A stretch of 64,000 nt of DNA from an uncultured Verrucomicrobiae bacterium (GTDB taxonomy: Bacteria; Verrucomicrobiota; Verrucomicrobiia; Limisphaerales; Palsa-1400). Under the pieces are notes generated by a model. That model did not search any database. It saw nothing but the letters and a program-made list of their open reading frames with translations, and was not told the origin of the DNA. The DNA is taken from contig CAVPOM010000004.1 of assembly GCA_963707025.1 (NCBI GenBank), forward strand, positions 32,001 to 96,000, written 5' to 3'. This document shows, one piece after another, positions 6,790 to 18,305 of this stretch. The translations under genes were made by a program, and so were the position numbers. Position 1 is the stretch's first letter; the number at the start of each line of letters is the position of its first letter.

Positions 6790-9700
6790 ATGAAAATGAA
6801 AATGTCGGTGCGGAAGCCGCTTGCTTTGGTTGCCAGCGGCTTGTTTTTATACGCCTTGAACCTGCACGGGCAGAGCGCCCCCGGCATCACCACCCAACCG
6901 CAAGGGCAATTCGCAACGAACGGACAACCGGCCGGCTTTAGCGTGGGCGCAAGCGGCGCCAGCCCGCTTCACTATCAGTGGCAATGGAATGGCGTGGCGC
7001 TGGCCGGAGCGACCAGTTCAAGCCTGGCGCTGACCGCGGTTACGAACGCGGGCAACATCACGGTCGTCGTCACCAACAGCGCGGGCAGCGTGACGAGCAG
7101 CGTGGCTGGGTTGGTCTTGATCGCGCCGCGAGCTTTGGCGGTGCTTCACACTTTCGGCTCGGTTGGGGACGGCGCCTGCCCGGATGGCCTGGTCTCATCA
7201 TCAAACTTGCTTTACGGGACTACTTACAGCGGAGGGATCTATGATGGCGGGTCGGTCTTTGCGGTGTACCCCGACGGCACCGATTACACCTTGCCTTACC
7301 AATTCACCGGAGGCACGGACGGTGGCAACCCACAGATTGGGTTGGCCATTGGGGATATTTGGAACGGCAACTCCGCCATCTATGGCACAGCGGCCAGCGG
7401 CGGCGCTGGCGGAGGCACCGTCTTTGCGGTCAATGGCAGCCACTCCGGGCAACTTTCAGGTCTGAAGGAGCTGACCGGTGTTCTGGGTTGGGGGGGTGGT
7501 GTTGTGAATTCCGTGTTTGGCTTCAATTATAGCGCCCTCCATATCCAGTTCGACGTGCTGGATGGCTTCACAGGCGGCTCCGATGGAGCCGGTCCGCAAG
7601 GGGGCTTGATCGAGTCAGGCGCCACGTTTTACGGGACAACGGGGCAGGGCGGATCCAGCGGCTACGGGACGGTGTATGCGGTGAACGACGATGCCAGTGG
7701 TTTCAGCACCCTCTACTCGTTCACCAACGGCGTGGACGGAGCCAGCCCGGAAGCCGGCTTGATTTTGGCGGGCACCACGCTCTACGGGACAACCTCGTCC
7801 GGCGGCGCAAACGCTCTGGGCACAGTGTTTTCAATCAATGCCAATGGAAGCGGTTTCAAAGCACTCCATACGTTCACCGGCGGTGGCGACGGGGCCAGCC
7901 CGCAGGCGGGATTGGTTTTGGGCAGGAATGTTTTATATGGGACAACCTCGTATGGCGGCGCCAGCGGTTGCGGGACGGTGTTTGCCGTCCATACCGACGG
8001 CACCGGATTCAAGACTCTTTATGCCTTCTCGGGCGGTCTGGACGGGGCCAATCCGGAAGCGGGATTGACCCTGGCGGGCGACACGCTCTACGGAACGGCG
8101 CGGTTTGGCGGCAACAACAACAACGGGACCGTGTTTTCCCTGGCCACGAACGGCGGCCTCATCGTGCTCTATGCCTTTACGGGTGGCGCCGATGGCGCGA
8201 ATCCCCCGCAGTCGGGTCTGATCGTGTCCGGCAACACCCTTTACGGTGTTGCCCAGGGCGGCGGCGCGAATCTGGCGGGGACGCTGTTCCGTCTTTCCCC
8301 GCTCGTCGAGATAATCCAGCAACCGGCGGGCGCCACCGTTTCCAGTGGTAGCGCGGCGTCCTTGACGGTCGTGGCCGCCGGCGTTCCACCGTTGGCCTAT
8401 CAATGGTGGTTTAACAGCAGTGCGATTGCGGGCGCCACCAACGCGAGTCTGACTCTGGCGGCGGCGGGAGCGAATAATACCGGCAGCTACATGGTGGTTG
8501 CCACCAACGCCTACGGAAGCGCGACCAGCAGCAACGGAGTGTTGACGGTGATTTCGGGGCTGCCGTCCATTGCCGCCCAGCCAGCCAGCGCGGTGGCGGG
8601 CCTGGGGCAGCCGGCGCAGTTTGGAGTCACCGCCTATGGCACCTGGCCGCTGGGCTACCAATGGCAGTTTAACGGCGGAGCGCTGGCGGGGGCGAACGGT
8701 TCGACCTTGAGTATTCCATCGGCCGCGGCCACGAACGCCGGAAGTTACAGCGTGATCATCAGCAACGACTTTGGCGCGGTGACCAGTTCTGTGGCGGCAT
8801 TGGCGGTGTACTCCGCGCCCGCCATCACGGTCCAGCCGCAAGGGGTGATGGTCTTGAACGGTTTGCCGGCGGAATTCGCCGTTTCGGTTTGCGGGGCCAT
8901 GCCGCTGGGCTGGCAATGGTTCTTGAACGGCAGCGCGCTGGATGGCGGCACCAATACAATGCTCAGCGTGCCGGACGTGACCTCGAGTGATGCTGGCTCT
9001 TACACGGTGGTGGTGAGCAATGCCTACGGAAGCGTCACCAGCAGCATTGCGGCTTTGACGATTGATCTGCCTCCCACGATTTTGGTTCCGCCGCAGAACC
9101 TGGTGGCCAACGCCGGTGAGACCGCGGCATTCAGTGTCAGTGCCTGCGGCACGGCGCCGCTGAGTTACACCTGGCTGTGCAATGGGGTTCCATTGGCAGG
9201 CGCCACCAATTCTGTCCTGACGCTGCAAGTGTCAACCAACAGCCCCGGCAATTACAGCGTGGTGGTCACCAACAACTGCGGCAGTGCGGCCAGCAGCGCG
9301 GCCATGTTGCTGGTGGAAGAGCCGCTGGCCTGTACCGTGCTGCATCCATTCGGGGTTGGCTGGGATGGCAACGGACCAAACTGCGGCCTGGTGTTGGGGG
9401 GGGGCCTCCTTTACGGCACAACGACAGAGGGGGGGACCAATAACGCCGGCACGGTGTTTTCCGCGAGCACCAGCGGCGGCAATTGCACGGTGCTCTACAG
9501 TTTCACCGGTGGGGCGGATGGAGCCAATCCTTACGGCCATCTGGTGCTCTCCGGCAATACGCTCTACGGAACCGCCTCGGGCGGCGGAGCCAACGGCAAT
9601 GGCTCGGTTTTTGCAATCCACACCAACGGCACCGGCTTCACCGTGCTCCATTCCTTTAACGGTGATGATGGCGCCAGCCCTCTGGCGGGCCTGGTCTTGT

Positions 9701-12501
9701 CCGGCCTCACTCTTTACGGCACAACGTCAGAGGGCGGAACCAACTATTCAGGTGAGGTGTTTTCCGTTGGCACCAATGGCGCCGGCTTCAATGTTCTCTA
9801 CAATTTCAGCGGTGGCGCGGACGGGAACGATCCCACGGGCGAGTTAATCGTTGCCGGGACGACCCTTTATGGAACCACCCAATCTGGCGGAGTCAACGGC
9901 GTTGGCAACATTTTTTCCGTGAGCACCAATGGCGCCGTCTTCTCGAATCTCTACAGCTTCACCGATGGCGGCATTCCCTCTGCCGGCCTGGTCTTGTCCG
10001 GCCTCACTCTTTACGGCACCACGGCAGACGGCGGAACCAACTACTCAGGCGATGTGTTTTCGATTGGCACGAGCGGCAATGGTTACAAAGTGCTTTACAA
10101 CTTCACCGGCGATGCGGATGGGAGTTCGCCCTGCTGCAGCCTGGTGTTGTCCGCCAGCAGCCTTTTCGGAACCACGACCGGCGGCGGAACCAACTATGAT
10201 GGCACGGTGTTCTTGGTGAGCACCAGCGGCACCGGGTTCAAAGTGCTGCATAACTTCACGGGAGGAACGGATGACAGCGACCCGCAGGCAGGGCTTCTCC
10301 TTTCTGGCACCACGCTTTATGGAACCGCGCAGGGCGGCCAGATCAGCCAGGGCGCCATTTTTTCATTGTCCACCAGCGGCACCGGTTTCAAGGTGCTTTA
10401 CGACTTCACCCAAGGGTTGGATGGCGGCAACCCGGAAGCAGGGCCGATCCTCTCCGGGGGCACGCTTTACGGGGCCGCTCCGAACGTCGTTTATTCGGTG
10501 GAAGCCAGCGGCATCGGATATAAGGCGCTCTACCTCTTCACCAACGGCGAGGATGGGGATGATCCGTTTTACAGCCTGGTCCAGTCGGGGAGCACTCTTT
10601 ATGGAACCTGCTACGATGGCGGGTCGAATGGTTACGGCACGGTGTATTCGATCGCTACGAATGGCACGGGCTTCAAGGTGCTTCACACCTTCGCCGATGG
10701 CAATGACGGGGCCACCCCATGCAGCGGGTTGCTGCTCTCGGGGAGCACTCTCTACGGGGCCACGATGTCGGGCGGAACAAACGGCGCCGGAACGATTTTC
10801 TCCGTGAGCACCAGCGGCACGGCTTTCAAGACGGTTTACGCCTTCACCGGCGGCACCGATGGCGGCTCGCCATCCGGATTGATCTTGTCCGGCACGACGC
10901 TCTACGGCACGACGGCAGGCGGCGGCGATAATTACTCCGGGAATGTGTTCGCCGTGAAAACGGCCGGGACGGGATTCACCAATGTTTACAGTTTCACCGG
11001 CGGCGCCGACGGCAGCCTTCCCTCTGCCGGTCTGACCTTGTCCGGCAACACTCTTTTTGGCACGGCGTGCAACGGAGGGTCCAACATAATGTCCGCGGAC
11101 GGGCTGGCCGGCTGGGGAACGATTTACTCGGTGCTCACCAGCGGCGCCGGGTTCAAGGTGCTGCACACTTTCACCGGCGGCGCGGATGGAGGCAATCCGC
11201 AGTCGGCCCTGTTTCTGTCGGGCCAGACCCTCTATGGAACCACGTGCTACGCGGGTGACCAGGGCGGCGGCGGCACGGTTTTTATGGTCAATACAAATAC
11301 CGATTGTTTAACAACGCTTTACGGTTTCACCGGCGGTCCGGATGGGTCCAATCCCAACAGTGTGCTGGAATCCGGGAACACGCTTTATGGAACCTCCTAT
11401 GGGGGCGGTTATCTTTACGGCGGGACGGTGTTCAGCTTGTCGTTCGCGCCGGCCATCACCACCCAGCCCGTCAGTCTGGCGGTTTCCAACGGCACCGCGG
11501 CTGGCTTCATGGTGGCGGCGGCCGGCGTGGCGCCGCTCCATTATCAATGGCAGTTCAATGGGGTCTCCATCCCAGGGAGCACCAACACGGTCGTGGACCT
11601 GTCCTACGTGGTGGACAGTAATTCGGGCAATTACACGGTGGTGGTGACCAACTTCTATGGCAGCGTGACCAGCAGCGTGGCGGTGTTGACGGTGGCGCCT
11701 CCGCCGATTGTGCCGCCCGGCCAGCCGCCGCTGATTGGCGTTCAACCCCTCAGCCTGACGGTGAGCAACGGGCAGCCGGCGCAGTTTGGCGTTACGGCCT
11801 ACGGCGCCAGCCAGTATCAATGGTTCTGGAACGGCGCAGGCTTGGCCGGGGACACCAATTCGATCCTCAGCTTCTCAGCAGTGGCCGCCGCCAGCGCCGG
11901 CAATTACACCGTGGTTGCCGCCAACGCCTCAGGCAGTGTGACGAGCACGGTGGCGGTCTTGACCATCGTCGTGCCGCCCTTGCTGCCCAGGGTCGCGGGC
12001 GTCATCAGGAGCGCTCCCGCGATCACGGCCCAACCGAACAGCCTGACCGTATTGAACACCCAATCCGCGCTCCTTCAAGTCCAGGCTTCCGGCACCGCTC
12101 CCCTCAGCTACCAGTGGTCTTGCAACGGGCGGAACCTGGCCGGGGCTGCCGCCTCGACCCTCAGTCTGCCCGTGGTAACTACCAATAGCGCCGGCAGCTA
12201 CAGCGTGGTCGTGGCCAATGGCCTGGGCAGCGTGACCAGCGCGGTGGCTGTGCTGACTGTCACCGTTGCGAGCACCCCGCCGCAGATCATCACCAGCGAT
12301 GGCTTTTTCGGCTTCCTGACCAACCAGTTCGGGTTCAATGTCAGCGGCACGACCGGGCAGTCCATTGTGGTGGATGGTTCGACGGATCTGGTGAATTGGA
12401 CTCCGCTCTGCACCAACGCCGCCGGCGGCAATCCGTTTTACTTTTGCGATCCGTGCTGGACCAATTTTCCTGGGCGCTTTTACCGGGCCAGGGTGCAGTG
12501 A
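6790..12501 (+). CDS. Large secreted protein with Ig-like domains and many Gloeo_Verruco (GloVer)-type tandem repeats
   Basis: Signal peptide; Ig motifs (PLxYQWxFNG...GxYxVVVTN); repeats FTGGxDGxxPxAGLxLSGxTLYGT; C-terminal RFYRARVQ. Confidence 0.85.
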   Translation: MKMKMSVRKPLALVASGLFLYALNLHGQSAPGITTQPQGQFATNGQPAGFSVGASGASPLHYQWQWNGVALAGATSSSLALTAVTNAGNITVVVTNSAGSVTSSVAGLVLIAPRALAVLHTFGSVGDGACPDGLVSSSNLLYGTTYSGGIYDGGSVFAVYPDGTDYTLPYQFTGGTDGGNPQIGLAIGDIWNGNSAIYGTAASGGAGGGTVFAVNGSHSGQLSGLKELTGVLGWGGGVVNSVFGFNYSALHIQFDVLDGFTGGSDGAGPQGGLIESGATFYGTTGQGGSSGYGTVYAVNDDASGFSTLYSFTNGVDGASPEAGLILAGTTLYGTTSSGGANALGTVFSINANGSGFKALHTFTGGGDGASPQAGLVLGRNVLYGTTSYGGASGCGTVFAVHTDGTGFKTLYAFSGGLDGANPEAGLTLAGDTLYGTARFGGNNNNGTVFSLATNGGLIVLYAFTGGADGANPPQSGLIVSGNTLYGVAQGGGANLAGTLFRLSPLVEIIQQPAGATVSSGSAASLTVVAAGVPPLAYQWWFNSSAIAGATNASLTLAAAGANNTGSYMVVATNAYGSATSSNGVLTVISGLPSIAAQPASAVAGLGQPAQFGVTAYGTWPLGYQWQFNGGALAGANGSTLSIPSAAATNAGSYSVIISNDFGAVTSSVAALAVYSAPAITVQPQGVMVLNGLPAEFAVSVCGAMPLGWQWFLNGSALDGGTNTMLSVPDVTSSDAGSYTVVVSNAYGSVTSSIAALTIDLPPTILVPPQNLVANAGETAAFSVSACGTAPLSYTWLCNGVPLAGATNSVLTLQVSTNSPGNYSVVVTNNCGSAASSAAMLLVEEPLACTVLHPFGVGWDGNGPNCGLVLGGGLLYGTTTEGGTNNAGTVFSASTSGGNCTVLYSFTGGADGANPYGHLVLSGNTLYGTASGGGANGNGSVFAIHTNGTGFTVLHSFNGDDGASPLAGLVLSGLTLYGTTSEGGTNYSGEVFSVGTNGAGFNVLYNFSGGADGNDPTGELIVAGTTLYGTTQSGGVNGVGNIFSVSTNGAVFSNLYSFTDGGIPSAGLVLSGLTLYGTTADGGTNYSGDVFSIGTSGNGYKVLYNFTGDADGSSPCCSLVLSASSLFGTTTGGGTNYDGTVFLVSTSGTGFKVLHNFTGGTDDSDPQAGLLLSGTTLYGTAQGGQISQGAIFSLSTSGTGFKVLYDFTQGLDGGNPEAGPILSGGTLYGAAPNVVYSVEASGIGYKALYLFTNGEDGDDPFYSLVQSGSTLYGTCYDGGSNGYGTVYSIATNGTGFKVLHTFADGNDGATPCSGLLLSGSTLYGATMSGGTNGAGTIFSVSTSGTAFKTVYAFTGGTDGGSPSGLILSGTTLYGTTAGGGDNYSGNVFAVKTAGTGFTNVYSFTGGADGSLPSAGLTLSGNTLFGTACNGGSNIMSADGLAGWGTIYSVLTSGAGFKVLHTFTGGADGGNPQSALFLSGQTLYGTTCYAGDQGGGGTVFMVNTNTDCLTTLYGFTGGPDGSNPNSVLESGNTLYGTSYGGGYLYGGTVFSLSFAPAITTQPVSLAVSNGTAAGFMVAAAGVAPLHYQWQFNGVSIPGSTNTVVDLSYVVDSNSGNYTVVVTNFYGSVTSSVAVLTVAPPPIVPPGQPPLIGVQPLSLTVSNGQPAQFGVTAYGASQYQWFWNGAGLAGDTNSILSFSAVAAASAGNYTVVAANASGSVTSTVAVLTIVVPPLLPRVAGVIRSAPAITAQPNSLTVLNTQSALLQVQASGTAPLSYQWSCNGRNLAGAAASTLSLPVVTTNSAGSYSVVVANGLGSVTSAVAVLTVTVASTPPQIITSDGFFGFLTNQFGFNVSGTTGQSIVVDGSTDLVNWTPLCTNAAGGNPFYFCDPCWTNFPGRFYRARVQ

Positions 12502-12512
12502 CTCTAATGCAC

Positions 12513-12582
12513 AATGCCTCCTCCTCGGCCGGGCCTTCCTCCTTCACTGGAGTTACGGAGGACAGGACGGAGGACAGGGAAT
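12513..12582. repeat. Second copy of the dispersed repeat at 6525-6594
   Basis: aatgcctcc..ccgggccttcc.ccttc....tacggaggacaggacgg.ggac.gg.aat. Confidence 0.7.
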
Positions 12583-12720
12583 GCAAAATGGAGAAGCGGT
12601 TTGAACTGGAGAAAACGGAGAGATTTTGGACCCGGCCGGGCGGCACATTTGCTTCTTGTCGCGGGGCGGGGAGGGTGTATGGTTGGCGCAGTCACCACGA
12701 AACAAGCAAAGGCTTTAAAT

Positions 12721-15700
12721 ATGGGCGAGAATAAAACGATCTGGGCGTTCGACCTCGGAACGGGTTCGATTGGCGAAGCGGTGCGGGACGGGACCAAGTT
12801 TTTGCACAAGGCTTCACTATTGATCCCCGCGGATTTTGCCGAAACCAAAACCGCCGCTGGTCGTCGCCGCATGTGCCGGACGCGCCTTGCCCACCAGGCG
12901 CGTGAGACTTGGCTCGATGACTTAATGCTCAAGGCGGGAATTGAACCGCTCAAGGGGCGGCGTACTGTGAAAGTTGATGGCAAGTGGCAGGCCGCGCCCG
13001 AGACTGAGGAACAGCAGCGGAATCGGGAACGCCTGGAACGCGAGTTTGCAGAGGCGGGAGATTCAACTTGTTACACGTCCTGCCTGCTCCGCATCAAACT
13101 CCTGCGCGGTGAAAAACTTGAGCCTTGGCAGGTTTATAAAGCGTTGCATTCGGCCATTCAAAGGCGCGGTTACGACCCCAACATTCCGTGGAAAACCCGG
13201 ACACGGAGCAAGGCCAAGGCTGGACAATCCAATGATGATGACGCCGGGACGCAAGCCCGCATGGAAGAATTTGAGAGACATCTGGAAGAGATGGCTCCGG
13301 GGAAGCCGGAATTTCAAGTTCCCTGTTACTTTGATGCTTGGAAAATGGGACTCTGGAATCCGTCAGATCCGATGCGACTCAAGAATCGCCTTGATTGTCG
13401 CGCCGAAAGCACGCGCAATCAAGTCGTGCCGCGCGAGCTTGTCGAGAAGGAAATTCGCGCCCTTGTTGACGCTGCTGGGAAGTACTATCCCGCACTGGCC
13501 GGCCAAGCAGACTTCCTGCTTTATGGTCGCGCAAAAACCGCGTACGCGTCCTTCTATGGCAAGCTCCGCAAGCAACATAATTTGAAAGAAGGTGGCGCGA
13601 ATGATTGGCAGGGCGTAGTGGGCCAGAAGATTCCGCGCTTTGACAACCGCATCATCGGCAAGTGCGTTCTCATCCCGCGCTTGAACGTCTGCAAGATGCG
13701 GACAGATGAAAAGGGTGATTTGCACGCACAATCGCGCCTTGCCGCTGAAACGGTTTTCCTGATGAGGCTGAAGAATATGAGATTTCAGACTGCCGAGGGG
13801 CAACGTGGCTTGACCGCGCAAGAAATCAACACGGTCTTTAACGACCCCAAGCGAAAAAAACTGGCCTTGACCGAGACCGCGTGGAAAAAGCTCTGTGTGC
13901 TTTTTGGCGGGAAGCCGCTTCTGGGTCAGTTTCAGGAGGTCGAAGAACCCAGCTTTTCCGGGCGAAGCCGTTATTGTCGGCCCGCCTTGGAAATACTCAA
14001 GCGACTGATTCTCTCAGGGGATTCTCCCCAAGCCGCCCACGATAAAGAGCTCGCACGCCTGAATGGGAACTCGGATCCCCTCAAAGGATCGGTGCCTCAA
14101 GACCTCCGGTTCTTGCTCCAGATGGGAAAAACTTGGGATGGAATCTATATTCCGAATCAGAAACTGGATGCGCTCGCTCACTTGACAGGCTATGCAGACG
14201 AGGCCATCCGCGACCTCATCGGCACGCAGAACGATCCTGTGGTTCGGCACCGCCTCACCTTGTTCGCCGAGCGACTGCATAAGTTGAGGGAGAAATTCGG
14301 CGTGCCTGATTCGGTCGTCCTGGAATTTGTGCGCGAGGATTTTATGGGGAAGAAGGCCAAGATGGAATATTTCAAATTCCAGCGTGACCGTGCCGCGCAA
14401 CGAACAAAGGCGCGGGAACAAGCGCGAACCTTCGGCGCTGAGGAGCGCTCTTCAGGTCTCAAAATGGAATTGCTGACGGCTCAGGTTGGCGAATGCGTTT
14501 ACACTGCGGAAAAGTTGATTCCAGAGGAATTGGATCAATACGTGATTGACCATATTGTTCCAAGAGCCAAAGGGGGACCCGATTCGGTGCTAAACTATGT
14601 TTTGACGACCCGCCGGGCAAATGATGACAAGGGTAACCGGACGCCATTTGAGTGGCTTTCCGTGACGGTCGGATGGGATGCTTACGTTAATCGTGTCAAA
14701 GGCAGGATTGGCACGCTGCGGAACAAAAAAGTTCAGTTGCTCATTTCTGCCGAAGCCGAAAGTCTCGTGGAACGCTACACTTCGCTGGCCGAGACAGCCT
14801 GGATTTCCAAACTGGCGCAAACGATTATCGGCCTCCGGTTCGGCTGGCCGGGCGGTATTTCGGACGGGGAACGGAAGGTGATCGTCGTGTCCGGCGGACT
14901 GACCGGGCGCATTCGACGCAAGTACAAGCTCAACAGCCTGCTCAATCCAGAGGCCAAATCGGAGGAAGAAGCAGAAATAAAGAATCGCAAGGATGACCGC
15001 CATCACGCTCTTGATGCCATGGTCATCAGCTTCATCCCGGGCTGGGCGCGCAACGCGAAACTCTCCGGGTTCTTTCGATTTCCTGAAGGCGTGGATCGCG
15101 AGTTGTTTGGCCGTGAGATATCCGCGGTGATTCCAGAGGAGGTGTGCTTCGAAAAAGCGACGCTGGCGGAAACGATTTATGGGGTGCGCGGTCAAGGCCG
15201 AGGCAGACTGATTGTGCAGCGCAAGAAGGTTGTTGAACTCGCCCAAAAGCCGATGGCCCCGGGCAAAACAAACTTCGACCTCGCCTACGCCCAGAAGCAG
15301 ATACTATCAATTCGCGACGCGCACATTAGACAGCGACTCGCAGATTTCGTTGCCACCAGGCCCATCGAAGAGGCTTGGAACACATTTTGCGAAAGCTTTT
15401 GCCTGCGACGGACAGATGGATCATGCGGAAGTCCCATCAAATTAGTTCGGGTCAACGTAGGAGGAACCACCGAGTACAAGGATTTATCCAAAGATGGAAC
15501 GGGCGCATTCCGAAAGGGCTTCAAGGAACACAAAGGACAAATTGTATTTTTAGATAAAAAAGGAAAGCTCCGCGTTCGTCCCATTTATGCTTTTGAATCA
15601 GTCCGAACGGTACAAAGGGAACTTACGGCCTCCGGTGACTGCCAGGCGGTCAAGGGCTTTTTTCAGTCGGGGTGTTTGATCGAACTCGCCTCAAGCATCG

Positions 15701-15852
15701 CGCACCGTTCTACTCCGTTAGCGCCAGGAAGATACAAGCTGAACACGATGCGCACAGATGGTTACGTCACTGTAACGGACTCCGCCGGAAAAATTTCACT
15801 CCCTATCAGCTTGGAGAAAATGTTTGCTGCGGGTTTCAAGCGGGTCGAGTAA
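12721..15852 (+). CDS. cas9: Type II CRISPR endonuclease Cas9, 1043 aa (II-C-like)
   Basis: RuvC-I AFDLGTGSIG; Arg-rich bridge helix GRRRMCRTRLAHQAR; RuvC-II VVLEFVRE; HNH IDHIVPRAKGG..NYVL..ANDDKGNRTP; RuvC-III DRHHALDAMVI; adjacent to cas1/cas2/array. Confidence 0.96.
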   Translation: MGENKTIWAFDLGTGSIGEAVRDGTKFLHKASLLIPADFAETKTAAGRRRMCRTRLAHQARETWLDDLMLKAGIEPLKGRRTVKVDGKWQAAPETEEQQRNRERLEREFAEAGDSTCYTSCLLRIKLLRGEKLEPWQVYKALHSAIQRRGYDPNIPWKTRTRSKAKAGQSNDDDAGTQARMEEFERHLEEMAPGKPEFQVPCYFDAWKMGLWNPSDPMRLKNRLDCRAESTRNQVVPRELVEKEIRALVDAAGKYYPALAGQADFLLYGRAKTAYASFYGKLRKQHNLKEGGANDWQGVVGQKIPRFDNRIIGKCVLIPRLNVCKMRTDEKGDLHAQSRLAAETVFLMRLKNMRFQTAEGQRGLTAQEINTVFNDPKRKKLALTETAWKKLCVLFGGKPLLGQFQEVEEPSFSGRSRYCRPALEILKRLILSGDSPQAAHDKELARLNGNSDPLKGSVPQDLRFLLQMGKTWDGIYIPNQKLDALAHLTGYADEAIRDLIGTQNDPVVRHRLTLFAERLHKLREKFGVPDSVVLEFVREDFMGKKAKMEYFKFQRDRAAQRTKAREQARTFGAEERSSGLKMELLTAQVGECVYTAEKLIPEELDQYVIDHIVPRAKGGPDSVLNYVLTTRRANDDKGNRTPFEWLSVTVGWDAYVNRVKGRIGTLRNKKVQLLISAEAESLVERYTSLAETAWISKLAQTIIGLRFGWPGGISDGERKVIVVSGGLTGRIRRKYKLNSLLNPEAKSEEEAEIKNRKDDRHHALDAMVISFIPGWARNAKLSGFFRFPEGVDRELFGREISAVIPEEVCFEKATLAETIYGVRGQGRGRLIVQRKKVVELAQKPMAPGKTNFDLAYAQKQILSIRDAHIRQRLADFVATRPIEEAWNTFCESFCLRRTDGSCGSPIKLVRVNVGGTTEYKDLSKDGTGAFRKGFKEHKGQIVFLDKKGKLRVRPIYAFESVRTVQRELTASGDCQAVKGFFQSGCLIELASSIAHRSTPLAPGRYKLNTMRTDGYVTVTDSAGKISLPISLEKMFAAGFKRVE

Positions 15853-15858
15853 GGATTT

Positions 15859-16743
15859 ATGAGCCACCACATTCTCCATGTTCTCAAACATGGGTGCGTG
15901 TTGTCCAGAGACCGGGGGTTTTTGGTTTGCCGGGGCGAGGACAAGAGCGAAAACCGCATTCCTTACGAGGATTTGCGCGCGGTCATTATTGCCGCCCGCG
16001 GGGTTACACTCACTTCGAGCTTCGTTTCTGCCGTGCTGGAAACGGATGGAATTATTCTGCATTGCAACGAAAGTTACCAGCCTTGCGGGGTGACCGCTCC
16101 ACTGGGACGGGTGGTTGACACCAGAGCATACCTCCATCAGGCGGAGCGACCGGAGCGCCTGAACAATCGCCTCTGGCAGCATCTCATCCGGGGCAAAACG
16201 CTCAATCAATTGAAGGTGCTCAAGAAGCGGCAGTTGACTTCGCCTCATCTGGAATTGGCCTTGAAGGACGATTATTTCGACGAAGGCAATTGCGCACGGC
16301 GGTACTGGCAGCTTTATTTCCCTTCCATTGGCTGGGTTTCCTCGTCCCGGGACCGCCGGCAGGATAACGCGCCGAACAATATGTTGAATTATGGCTATGC
16401 GGTGCTGTCCGCTCTTTGCCACCGGGGTCTGCTGGTGCATGGGTTGACGCCGCTCCTCGGGGTCAAGCATTGCACGCGCTACCGTGCTGACCCGCTGGTC
16501 TATGATTTGATGGAGCCGTTTCGCCCGGCGGTGGATTTGATGATGGCTGAGTTCATGGTCGGCGAGGATGTCAGCATGAAAGCCTGGTGCAAAAAAGTGG
16601 GAACGCAACTGCGGGAGAAACGGGTGATGCACGAACGGTTTTCCTTGAAAATCATGGACGCGATTGATGCCTCGGCCAATTCTCTGGCGCGCAGTTACAG
16701 CGAAAAGTCGGACAAGCCGTTTTGGGTGCCGGAATTGGAATAG
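15859..16743 (+). CDS. cas1: CRISPR-associated endonuclease Cas1 (type II)
   Basis: EGNCARRYW, NNMLNYGYAVL, LGVKH, LVYDLMEPFRP. Confidence 0.96.
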   Translation: MSHHILHVLKHGCVLSRDRGFLVCRGEDKSENRIPYEDLRAVIIAARGVTLTSSFVSAVLETDGIILHCNESYQPCGVTAPLGRVVDTRAYLHQAERPERLNNRLWQHLIRGKTLNQLKVLKKRQLTSPHLELALKDDYFDEGNCARRYWQLYFPSIGWVSSSRDRRQDNAPNNMLNYGYAVLSALCHRGLLVHGLTPLLGVKHCTRYRADPLVYDLMEPFRPAVDLMMAEFMVGEDVSMKAWCKKVGTQLREKRVMHERFSLKIMDAIDASANSLARSYSEKSDKPFWVPELE

Positions 16744-16755
16744 GAAAGGCCGCCG

Positions 16756-17112
16756 ATGGCCGTCGAAAAGAAAAGTCCGTTTCGTATGGGGTGGATTCTG
16801 GCCATGTTCGACTTGCCGGTGATGACCGAGCGGGAACGAAAAGCGGCGACAAGGTTCCGCAACGACCTCCTCGACAACGGTTATTTGATGATTCAGTTTT
16901 CCGTGTACGCGCGGCCCTGCGTCAGTTACGATCAGATGGAGGTGCATATCGGGCGGATCAAGGGATTGATTCCCACCGCCGGGAATGTCAGGCTGATGTT
17001 CATGACGGACGAGCAGTGGAAAAAAAGTTACACCGTGATCGGGGAGAATTACAAAGAGGATCGGCGTGCAAAAGACCCCTCCATTCCCAAACAAGTGGAT
17101 TTTTGGGAATAA
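16756..17112 (+). CDS. cas2: CRISPR-associated Cas2 (type II)
   Basis: AMFDLPV, FRNDLLDNGYLMIQFSVYAR, TDEQW. Confidence 0.96.
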   Translation: MAVEKKSPFRMGWILAMFDLPVMTERERKAATRFRNDLLDNGYLMIQFSVYARPCVSYDQMEVHIGRIKGLIPTAGNVRLMFMTDEQWKKSYTVIGENYKEDRRAKDPSIPKQVDFWE

Positions 17113-17195
17113 AACTGGCTCCCGGACGTGCTGGGCAGTGGTCCGAGAGCCAATATTTCAGTTAAGGCTTCTCCCCCCGGAGATGCGGGTAACTG
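17110..17195 (-). ncRNA. Putative tracrRNA
   Basis: 17161-17187 matches the crRNA-sense repeat at 23/27, so it is an anti-repeat on the minus strand. It is followed by hairpin UGGCUCUCGGAC/GUCCGGGAGCCA and UUUU. Confidence 0.8.
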
Positions 17196-17201
17196 TCTTA
17201 A

Positions 17202-17229
17202 ACTCTACCACATCAAGCCATTCTGTCCA
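17202..17229 (-). promoter_or_regulatory. Putative sigma70 promoter for tracrRNA
   Basis: TGGACA-16 nt-TAGAGT with TG extension, ~7 nt upstream of the anti-repeat region. Confidence 0.5.
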
Positions 17230-17233
17230 GCCT

Positions 17234-17866
17234 ATTATACCGCGCCTCTCCGGGGGGGGAAGCCAAAACTCCCGAAAATGAAATGCACGCAGTCAAGCGA
17301 TTATACCGCGCCTCTCCGGGGGGGGAAGCCAAAACCTTGGAATGACCACTTCAATCGTGGTGGCAATTATACCGCGCCTCTCCGGGGGGGGAAGCCAAAA
17401 CAGCAAGAGACTTTTGCAATGTAGCACGTTGATTATACCGCGCCTCTCCGGGGGGGGAAGCCAAAACTACGTCAAAACTTAAAAGGCCCGCCCGACTATT
17501 ATACCGCGCCTCTCCGGGGGGGGAAGCCAAAACGGGCGCGCCAATGCCGCAAATCCACCACCCATTATACCGCGCCTCTCCGGGGGGGGAAGCCAAAACT
17601 GGGGTGCTCTCTAGGTCGAGATGGCGGTGATTATACCGCGCCTCTCCGGGGGGGGAAGCCAAAACGGGCGCGCCAATGCCGCAAATCCACCACCCATTAT
17701 ACCGCGCCTCTCCGGGGGGGGAAGCCAAAACTGGGGTGCTCTCTAGGTCGAGATGGCGGTGATTATACCGCGCCTCTCCGGGGGGGGGAAGCCAAAACGA
17801 CGGTCTGGACTATCTGGCGGAGCCGGTCATTATACCGCGCCTCTCCGGGGGGGGGGAAGCCAAAAC
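17234..17866 (-). CRISPR. CRISPR array: 10 repeats (36 nt, GTTTTGGCTTCCCCCCCCGGAGAGGCGCGGTATAAT), 9 spacers of 30 nt (7 unique)
   Basis: Repeat starts (+ coordinates) 17234, 17300, 17366, 17432, 17498, 17564, 17630, 17696, 17762, 17829; last two have G9/G10 runs; orientation inferred from GTTTT 5' end, terminal TATAAT and tracr complementarity. Confidence 0.98.
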
Positions 17867-17886
17867 GATCATGAAGTTTTCTGGTC

Positions 17887-17945
17887 CTTGGCGACTTTTT
17901 CGAGAACGTGACCGCTTCGGGCGCGTTCTCGAAAAAGTCGCCAAG
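17887..17945. repeat. Perfect 22-bp inverted repeat next to the array
   Basis: cttggcgactttttcgagaacg (17887-17908) / cgttctcgaaaaagtcgccaag (17924-17945). Confidence 0.85.
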
Positions 17946-18098
17946 CCTTGGGGCGCTCGTGGCTCGCGGGGAGGGATGGCCTGCGGCGGGCAGCGAGTGC
18001 GCGCCCTACCTCTAAAGGCATGCTCTGCGTCCATCGTCCGGGCTCCATCCTGGAGTTTCGCCCGGTGGCCCTGCTTGGCCGCTGTCCCGGTTCCGCTT

Positions 18099-18305
18099 TC
18101 AGGTCTGGCGGCTCTTGCGCCACTTGCTGCGGTGTTTCATGATCCAATCGGTCAAGGCACGCTCGAAACCGATGTCGTGGCCGGCCTTTTCGGACTCGAT
18201 CCACTTGTGCCGTAAAATCTCGTCCCGCTCCGCCTGGAATTCGCGGTAGAGGGAGGATCGTGTGACCACGTCGTTCTCTGATGGGCCGCTGGATGTGTTG
18301 GGCAT
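18099..18305 (-). CDS. Small conserved hypothetical protein (DUF4032-like)
   Basis: EILRHKWIESEKAGHDIGFERALTDW. Confidence 0.7.
   Translation of the reverse strand: MPNTSSGPSENDVVTRSSLYREFQAERDEILRHKWIESEKAGHDIGFERALTDWIMKHRSKWRKSRQT

What the first reader, a model, noticed from the sequence alone, without database searches (positions are those of the whole stretch)
17110..17335. tracrRNA directly downstream of, and co-oriented with, the terminal repeat: possible natural single-guide RNA
Seen on the minus strand: spacer 1, repeat 1, a 44-nt linker, the anti-repeat (23/27 match over 17161-17187), a hairpin and UUUU. I see no terminator between repeat and anti-repeat. Established: II-C repeats carry -10 promoters, and new spacers are added at the transcript 3' end. 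Inference: a transcript from repeat 2's TATAAT would fold in cis into an sgRNA for the newest spacer. The tracr tail is unusually minimal, with one hairpin.
Basis: partly seen in the sequence, partly recalled or inferred. Interest (0 to 1): 0.72.

Follow-up and report, generated by a model that had tools for sequence, protein, structure and literature searches.

The report
Compact tracrRNA with its own promoter
The helper RNA of this bacterial Cas9 system sits right behind the CRISPR array, but the gap between them looks like the helper's own promoter, so this is most likely the usual two-RNA guide (as in Campylobacter) with an unusually simple fold rather than a natural single-guide RNA.

Summary
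A co-oriented anti-repeat (17161-17191, minus strand), one hairpin and UUUU lie about 42 nt behind the terminal repeat, with no terminator between.

The single-guide reading is weak. The linker holds the only sigma70 promoter match in 1.3 kb (TGGACA-16-TG-TAGAGT). In relatives of this Cas9 the layout is a clade hallmark (74 of 77 distinct loci). The linker is unstructured and carries a -35/-10 pair at a fixed place (25 of 34 dissimilar linkers, against 4.4 shuffled). The promoter moves with the tracrRNA when extra DNA intervenes. Campylobacter has the same layout and makes a separate ~73-nt tracrRNA. RNase III is in the genome.

A read-through from repeat 2 probably exists and would fold in cis, but most likely as a precursor that RNase III cuts. 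No RNA data covered the locus.

What remains new is the scaffold. It is an ~80-nt tracrRNA with one covarying hairpin, no separate nexus hairpin, and two conserved pyrimidine-pyrimidine mismatches in place of the bulge. It belongs to a divergent Verrucomicrobia Cas9 clade that NCBIfam calls Cas9d but whose locus looks II-C.

The parts
12721..15852 (+). cas9, 1043 aa (the ORF opens at 12514; the database protein starts at 12721). RuvC D11, E535, H761, D764 and HNH H611, N634 are invariant in the clade
15859..16743 (+). cas1 (type II, NMENI model)
16756..17112 (+). cas2; its stop codon overlaps the tracrRNA U-tract
   Evidence: sequence
17110..17195 (-). predicted primary tracrRNA, about 86 nt (start inferred 7 nt after the -10)
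17114..17154 (-). single tail hairpin: 14-bp stem, conserved CAC/C internal loop, 3-bp cap stem, followed by U4 (17114-17111); probable terminator
17161..17191 (-). anti-repeat; two U.U mismatches opposite repeat positions 4-5
17202..17207 (-). tracrRNA -10 box TAGAGT with extended TG
   Evidence: conserved in relatives
17224..17229 (-). tracrRNA -35 box TGGACA, starting at the fifth base after the terminal repeat
   Evidence: same position in 63 of 74 relatives
17192..17233 (-). linker: tracrRNA promoter and probably also the adaptation leader (AGG directly after the repeat)
   Evidence: leader role inferred
17234..17269 (-). terminal repeat R1 (3' end of the array transcript, probable acquisition end)
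17270..17299 (-). spacer 1, probably the newest
17300..17335 (-). repeat R2; its GG-TATAAT end (17305-17300) fits the II-C repeat promoter gnTAnaaT
17234..17866 (-). CRISPR array: 10 repeats, 9 spacers; spacers 5-6 are repeated as 7-8; R9 and R10 have a longer C-run (37, 38 nt)

Best explanation
An ordinary dual-RNA type II system laid out as in Campylobacter jejuni. Shown: anti-repeat, hairpin, promoter motif and their conservation. Inferred from here on. The tracrRNA (~86 nt, about 17195-17110) is made from its own sigma70 promoter, which fills the linker. It pairs in trans with pre-crRNAs started at repeat-embedded -10 boxes; RNase III cuts the duplex and Cas9 loads it. The tail hairpin plus U-tract ends the tracrRNA, and probably also array transcripts and the convergent cas mRNA. 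Array transcripts that run through R1 into the tracrRNA should exist. They fold back in cis and are cut by RNase III into the same crRNA:tracrRNA pair, so any contiguous form is a passing precursor. The scaffold is a clade-specific minimal variant: 3 bp, two pyrimidine mismatches, upper stem, a 6-7 nt joiner and one long hairpin.
For: Only promoter hit in 16900-18200 (0.3 expected) lies in the linker. A -35 match of at least 5/6 in 55 of 74 distinct relatives, against about 5 shuffled; it starts at the fifth base in 63 of 74. A full -35/16-18/A..T promoter in 53 of 74 (shuffled mean 8.6, max 16) and in 25 of 34 linkers under 70% alike (mean 4.4, max 12 of 500). Pairing with the repeat stays at or below 0.15 through column 32 from the -35 start and rises only from the predicted start site (0.31 at column 36, 0.86 at column 44). 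Where extra DNA lies after the repeat, the promoter stays next to the anti-repeat: L068, L075, the second tracr copy of L066, and L165 from G046, outside the counted set, with TTGCAA-17-TG-TATATT. Loci showing only one repeat keep the -35 (L035, L037, L139, L153). Linkers are unstructured (median z -0.03). RNase III passes its cut-off in the genome. Campylobacter and Helicobacter tracrRNAs lie downstream of the repeats behind their own -10, as a 73-nt transcript (PMC4607530, passages). Its start was mapped by RNA-seq (PMC3737331, section 10), and northern blots show ~74 and ~62 nt forms (PMC3656092, Fig. 6 legend).
Against: No transcript was seen. 0 of 74 linkers hold a terminator-like site, so read-through is not blocked. 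The -10 is weak in many relatives (first position T in only 43 of 74), and 21 of 74 fail the full promoter test. The conserved AGG-Y-TTGAC at the repeat edge and the GAAG and GYTGA motifs inside the spacer could partly be a Cas1-Cas2 leader signal. Relatives share ancestry, so the counts are not independent events.
Confidence: 0.75

Rival explanations
1. Cis-processing gives priority to the newest spacer. The tracrRNA has its own promoter, but the tight tandem layout is kept because the R2-started read-through supplies spacer 1 with a tracrRNA in cis. After RNase III cutting, spacer 1 would be over-represented in Cas9.
For: Layout kept in 74 of 77 distinct loci at 63-84 nt; no terminator-like linker in 0 of 74. 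Cis fold -83.4 kcal/mol. Repeat and anti-repeat each fold on themselves (median about -9.5 and -9.9 kcal/mol), which could slow pairing in trans.
Against: The short distance is fully explained by a promoter footprint. At equilibrium, longer read-throughs pair the anti-repeat with upstream repeats as often as with R1. Self-folds expose CCCC (repeat) and GGGG (tracr, 60 of 74) loops that could start pairing in trans (inference). Distance varies in L068, L075 and L165, and L165 has an inverted repeat in between.
Confidence: 0.14
2. One reading: the uncut spacer1-repeat-linker-tracrRNA molecule (~185 nt) persists and is loaded by Cas9 as the working guide.
For: The sequence allows it. A CRISPR-associated IscB is guided by one ncRNA that holds array, repeat and anti-repeat (PMC12660989, passages). 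This Cas9 is a deep lineage that NCBIfam labels Cas9d.
Against: The ~27-bp duplex should be an RNase III substrate and the enzyme is present. The loop is a conserved promoter, not a stable RNA loop. The other spacers need a free tracrRNA anyway. The 3' end of spacer 1 has no match of 8 nt or more in the cas region, as a tracr-L guide would have. The C. jejuni northern legend reports only ~74/62-nt tracr forms.
Confidence: 0.08
3. The conserved linker motif is only the Cas1-Cas2 leader, and the tracrRNA is started from R1's own TATAAT as a 5'-extended ~118-nt RNA.
For: R1 ends in a perfect GG-TATAAT; repeats end in TAnnnT in 64 of 74. AGG directly after the repeat is conserved.
Against: The motif moves with the tracrRNA, not with the repeat, when the two are separated. 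Its 16-18 nt spacing to an A..T hexamer is far above shuffles.
Confidence: 0.03

Closest known systems
Campylobacter jejuni / C. coli / Helicobacter type II-C loci
   Same: cas9-cas1-cas2 with a convergent array; 36-nt repeats ending gnTAnaaT; tracrRNA downstream of the repeats behind its own sigma70 -10; short primary tracrRNA (73-75 nt there, ~70-90 nt here)
   Different: Cas9 only ~16% identical to any solved Cas9; tail is one long hairpin; lower stem has tandem pyrimidine mismatches
Type II-D Cas9d (MG34, MG102, MG33/former II-C2)
   Same: NCBIfam NF049971 at 1199 bits against a cut-off of 375; by eye, short motifs resemble MG33 proteins in the supplement of PMC9755519 (not scored)
   Different: No cas4 at the locus; no RRXRR Pfam hit; published Cas9d/Cas9c2 guide scaffolds are 116-163 nt, multi-stem, and unlike this one in sequence
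Natural single guides: tracr-L, phage vsgRNA, scaRNA-tracr
   Same: A repeat-like element upstream of the anti-repeat on one strand could give a one-piece guide
   Different: Those carry a short guide aimed at the cas9 promoter and are not the array's terminal repeat; no such target here
CRISPR-associated IscB (DelIscB) ncRNA
   Same: Array, repeat and anti-repeat on one strand upstream of a scaffold
   Different: IscB effector with an omegaRNA-type scaffold; here a full Cas9 with cas1-cas2 and a promoter between repeat and anti-repeat

Membership tests
tracrRNA (type II) | anti-repeat complementary to the locus repeat and covarying with it | tested here: met
   positions 1-3, 6, 8-10 paired in 74 of 74; position 7 in four Watson-Crick types, 72 of 74 paired
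tracrRNA (type II) | structured 3' tail ending in a U-tract | tested here: met
   93.9% of cells paired, 16 of 17 pairs with changes on both sides, slid controls 27-39%
tracrRNA (type II) | own promoter, separate transcript | tested here: inconclusive
   promoter motif met; transcript not observed
type II-C locus | cas9-cas1-cas2 only, no csn2 or cas4 | tested here: met
   window ORFs; cas1 and cas2 in 73 of 73 relatives; 6 loci with a cas9-cas1 gap over 300 nt and 1 with a cas1-cas2 gap of 671 nt were not examined
type II-C locus | convergent array, repeats with gnTAnaaT, degenerate repeats at the transcript 5' end | tested here: met
   TAnnnT 64 of 74, GnTAnnnT 53 of 74; distal repeat mutated 9 of 24, proximal 1 of 24
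type II-C locus | Cas9 branches within the II-C clade | tested here: inconclusive
   best PDB sequence and fold matches are II-C and small II-A Cas9s but weak; no tree with references was built
type II-D (Cas9d) | Cas9d family model | tested here: met
   NF049971 over cut-off for the window protein and 5 of 5 relatives
type II-D (Cas9d) | adaptation module cas1-cas2-cas4 (PMC12669027) | tested here: not met
   no cas4 at the locus; the genome's PF01930 hits lie elsewhere
type II-D (Cas9d) | large multi-stem, pseudoknotted tracrRNA scaffold | tested here: not met
   tail 44-52 nt with one hairpin in 71 of 73, against the published guides
type II-D (Cas9d) | Cas9 and Cas1 monophyly with reference II-D proteins | not tested
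natural sgRNA | guide, repeat and anti-repeat on one strand without a terminator between | tested here: met
natural sgRNA | contiguous RNA accumulates uncut and is bound by Cas9 | not testable with these tools
   needs small RNA-seq or RIP-seq
natural sgRNA (tracr-L type) | guide matches the cas9 promoter | tested here: not met
   no match of the last 8-12 nt of spacer 1 in window 12301-17200

The most novel reading that the evidence does not exclude
Across this whole Cas9 clade, the array's last spacer and repeat are transcribed in one piece with the tracrRNA. Cas9 loads this cis-folded RNA, uncut or cut late, as a natural immune single guide for the newest spacer, while the linker promoter supplies free tracrRNA for older spacers. 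The one-hairpin, bulge-less scaffold would then be among the simplest Cas9 guides.
Probability: 0.12. Interest if true: 0.75.

Novelty: new variant of a known kind. Interest (0 to 1): 0.33.

Why it matters
As a natural sgRNA it is probably a false lead; the same layout is known from Campylobacter. The by-product has some value. It is a clade-wide tracrRNA family with no Rfam match whose signature motif is absent from the guide tables of the 79-ortholog catalogue. It has a very short one-hairpin tail and conserved U.U/C.C mismatches, and it belongs to a ~1040-aa Cas9 lineage between the II-C and II-D definitions. That gives a ready, compact guide design for an untested nuclease family. It also gives a clean system for asking whether read-through from the array into a downstream tracrRNA favours the newest spacer.

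Tried and rejected
RNA evidence: no RNA holder was listed, and three peat metatranscriptome contig sets laid nothing on the locus; this says nothing on expression.

Rfam: no tracrRNA family matched.

True tracr elsewhere: rejected; one model match in the genome, one non-array repeat match.

Self-targeting or tracr-L role of spacer 1: no match. Spacer 1 had no convincing phage hit (best E 0.2) and no exact 19-nt hit in viral contigs; the other spacers were not searched outside the genome, so there is no PAM.

A strict tracr-tail pattern found nothing in viral contigs.

A repeat mimic in the linker (GGCUU pairing with AAGCC in the R1-started RNA) was rejected by eye, because it does not follow the repeat in relatives.

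Spacer polarity from shared spacers: the pairs were near-identical arrays and uninformative.

Subtype by structure: model pTM 0.43, all Cas9s tie.

Preference of long read-throughs for R1: not seen at equilibrium. The first version of this test read a single unpaired position and was redone.

Literature searches for co-transcribed array-tracrRNA or for Verrucomicrobia Cas9 guides listed no paper on this clade or on such read-through; the library lacks most subscription papers. PMC9533551 and PMC4911918 (passages) gave nothing of use.

Earlier scan findings: none returned.

Full report
Observation. The window holds cas9, cas1 and cas2 on the plus strand and a convergent array of 10 repeats at 17234-17866. 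On the minus strand the terminal repeat is followed by a 42-nt linker, an anti-repeat (17191-17161; 23 of 27 over 17161-17187), a 6-nt joiner, one hairpin (17154-17114; -26.3 kcal/mol, z -5.3) and U4, which overlaps the cas2 stop codon. This is the only non-array match to the repeat in the genome at E<=0.5 and the only match of a tracrRNA model built here.

The only sigma70-like promoter in 16900-18200 lies inside the linker on the minus strand: TGGACA, 16 nt, extended TG, TAGAGT (17229-17202; 0.3 expected in shuffles). It predicts a start near 17195, four bases before pairing with the repeat begins, and an ~86-nt tracrRNA.

Relatives. An alignment of 35 Cas9 homologues fetched 80 of 178 genome loci and 80 of 234 metagenome loci. 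An array was called in 89 of 161 sequences including the window; many of the rest end too early or have short arrays. 88 of 89 had the tracr anchor (the decayed L047 was dropped), 77 were distinct, and in 74 of 77 the anti-repeat ends 63-84 nt after the terminal repeat. All 112 tracr-motif hits, in 111 of 161 loci, are on the strand opposite cas9. The layout is therefore a clade hallmark, not a peculiarity of this genome.

The linker is a promoter. A -35 match of at least 5/6 is present in 55 of 74 (about 5 shuffled) and starts at the fifth base in 63 of 74. A full -35/16-18/A..T pattern is found in 53 of 74 (shuffled 8.6, max 16) and in 25 of 34 linkers under 70% alike (4.4, max 12). Pairing with the repeat begins only at the predicted start site. 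The linker has no conserved fold (median z -0.03; 4 of 74 below -2). Where extra DNA follows the repeat, the promoter stays with the anti-repeat: L068, L075, a second tracr copy 354 nt away in L066, and L165 from G046, which was outside the counted set and has TTGCAA-17-TG-TATATT behind an inverted repeat. Against this reading: the -10 is often weak, 21 of 74 fail the full test, kin are not independent, and part of the motif may be the Cas1-Cas2 leader.

Read-through. No linker holds a terminator-like site (0 of 74), and repeats end in TAnnnT in 64 of 74, so array transcripts probably end at the tracr hairpin (inference). An RNA started behind R2's -10 (184 nt) folds R1 onto the anti-repeat (-83.4 kcal/mol, about 27 bp). 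The genome encodes RNase III, which by established type II biology cuts such duplexes, giving the normal crRNA:tracrRNA pair. Longer read-throughs show no equilibrium preference for R1. No RNA data covered the locus, so none of this is observed.

Known precedent. In C. jejuni, C. coli, C. lari and two Helicobacter species the tracrRNA lies downstream of the repeats behind its own -10 and is a 73-nt transcript (PMC4607530, passages). RNA-seq mapped its start (PMC3737331, passages and section 10), and northern blots show ~74 and ~62 nt (PMC3656092, passages with the Fig. 6 legend). II-C crRNAs start about 6 nt into the spacer (PMC12477760, passages). Natural single guides in print are tracr-L, vsgRNA and scaRNA-tracr (bioRxiv 10.64898/2026.06.01.729453, passages; PMC8224270, passages) and the DelIscB ncRNA (PMC12660989, passages). 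Spacer 1 has no target in the cas region.

The scaffold is the unusual part. The tail from the lower stem to the U-tract is 44-52 nt with one hairpin in 71 of 73 folded loci; L038 and L050 have extra hairpins and L053 was not called. The hairpin is strongly supported: 93.9% of cells paired, 16 of 17 pairs with two-sided changes, slid controls 27-39% (structure taken from the window fold). An invariant C-C-U and A-C frame an asymmetric internal loop. In the repeat duplex, positions 1-3, 6 and 8-10 pair in 74 of 74. The overall length is close to C. jejuni's, so it is minimal in fold rather than in size. The model found this RNA in 3 of 151 phylum genomes, each beside a Cas9 over the NF049971 cut-off; the fourth such genome (G046) has a diverged copy at the same place.

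Subtype. NCBIfam calls the Cas9 Cas9d (1199 bits, cut-off 375; 5 of 5 relatives). The locus lacks the cas4 that PMC12669027 (passages and supplement search; one supplement unreadable) gives for II-D. The guide is unlike the 116-163-nt Cas9d/Cas9c2 guides of PMC9755519 (passages; supplement file 5 whole, file 3 part 1 of 30 and a search; main supplement too large to read) and the multi-stem fold in PMC11903963 (passages). bioRxiv 10.64898/2026.08.17.745286 (parts 1-2 of 4; supplements closed) covers only MG102-like enzymes. Sequence and fold searches give weak, tied matches to II-C and II-A Cas9s. The subtype stays open. I found no paper on this clade's guide (supplements of PMC7606464); unseen supplements and patents may hold it.

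Verdict. Real tracrRNA, known layout, own promoter: dual-RNA system 0.75; cis read-through that favours the newest spacer 0.14; uncut natural sgRNA 0.08. Interest 0.33, mostly for the scaffold and the untested Cas9 clade.

Noticed in passing
window 17887-17945: Near-perfect 28-bp-arm palindrome just beyond the far end of the array (-43.9 kcal/mol, z -6.2), single copy in the genome; possibly a terminator for the neighbouring gene or an insulator of the array.
   Followed up: partly
window 17534-17761: Spacers 5-6 are repeated exactly as spacers 7-8, and R9/R10 have longer C-runs; real duplication or assembly slip.
   Followed up: no
window 17983-18012: A ~30-nt element with about 15 copies at 90-93% identity across the genome, REP-like.
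   Followed up: no
window 6790-12501: 1903-aa protein with many Ig-like domains directly upstream of cas9 on the same strand; probably unrelated.
   Followed up: no
window 17234-17269 and relatives: Repeats fold into hairpins with C-rich loops (CCCC in 35 of 74) and anti-repeats with GGGG loops (60 of 74), a possible kissing-loop start of pairing; the repeat fold is not above shuffles in the window.
   Followed up: partly
L066 downstream of cas2: Two tracrRNA copies in tandem, 289 nt apart; the array-proximal one has a degenerate -35, the distal one a good promoter.
   Followed up: partly
L038, L050 (also L158, L159): Expanded tracrRNA tails with extra hairpins inserted before and on top of the conserved stem; they show where the scaffold tolerates insertions.
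   Followed up: partly
L035, L037, L139, L153: Only one repeat is visible in the ~0.3 kb before the tracrRNA (collapsed arrays; L139 and L153 end soon after).
   Followed up: partly
L047:9900-12100: Degenerating array and anti-repeat, apparently a decaying locus.
   Followed up: no
window 17117-17141 and relatives: By eye, the tail motif resembles a stretch near the 3' end of MG102 guides, but pairs differently there; may be chance.
   Followed up: no
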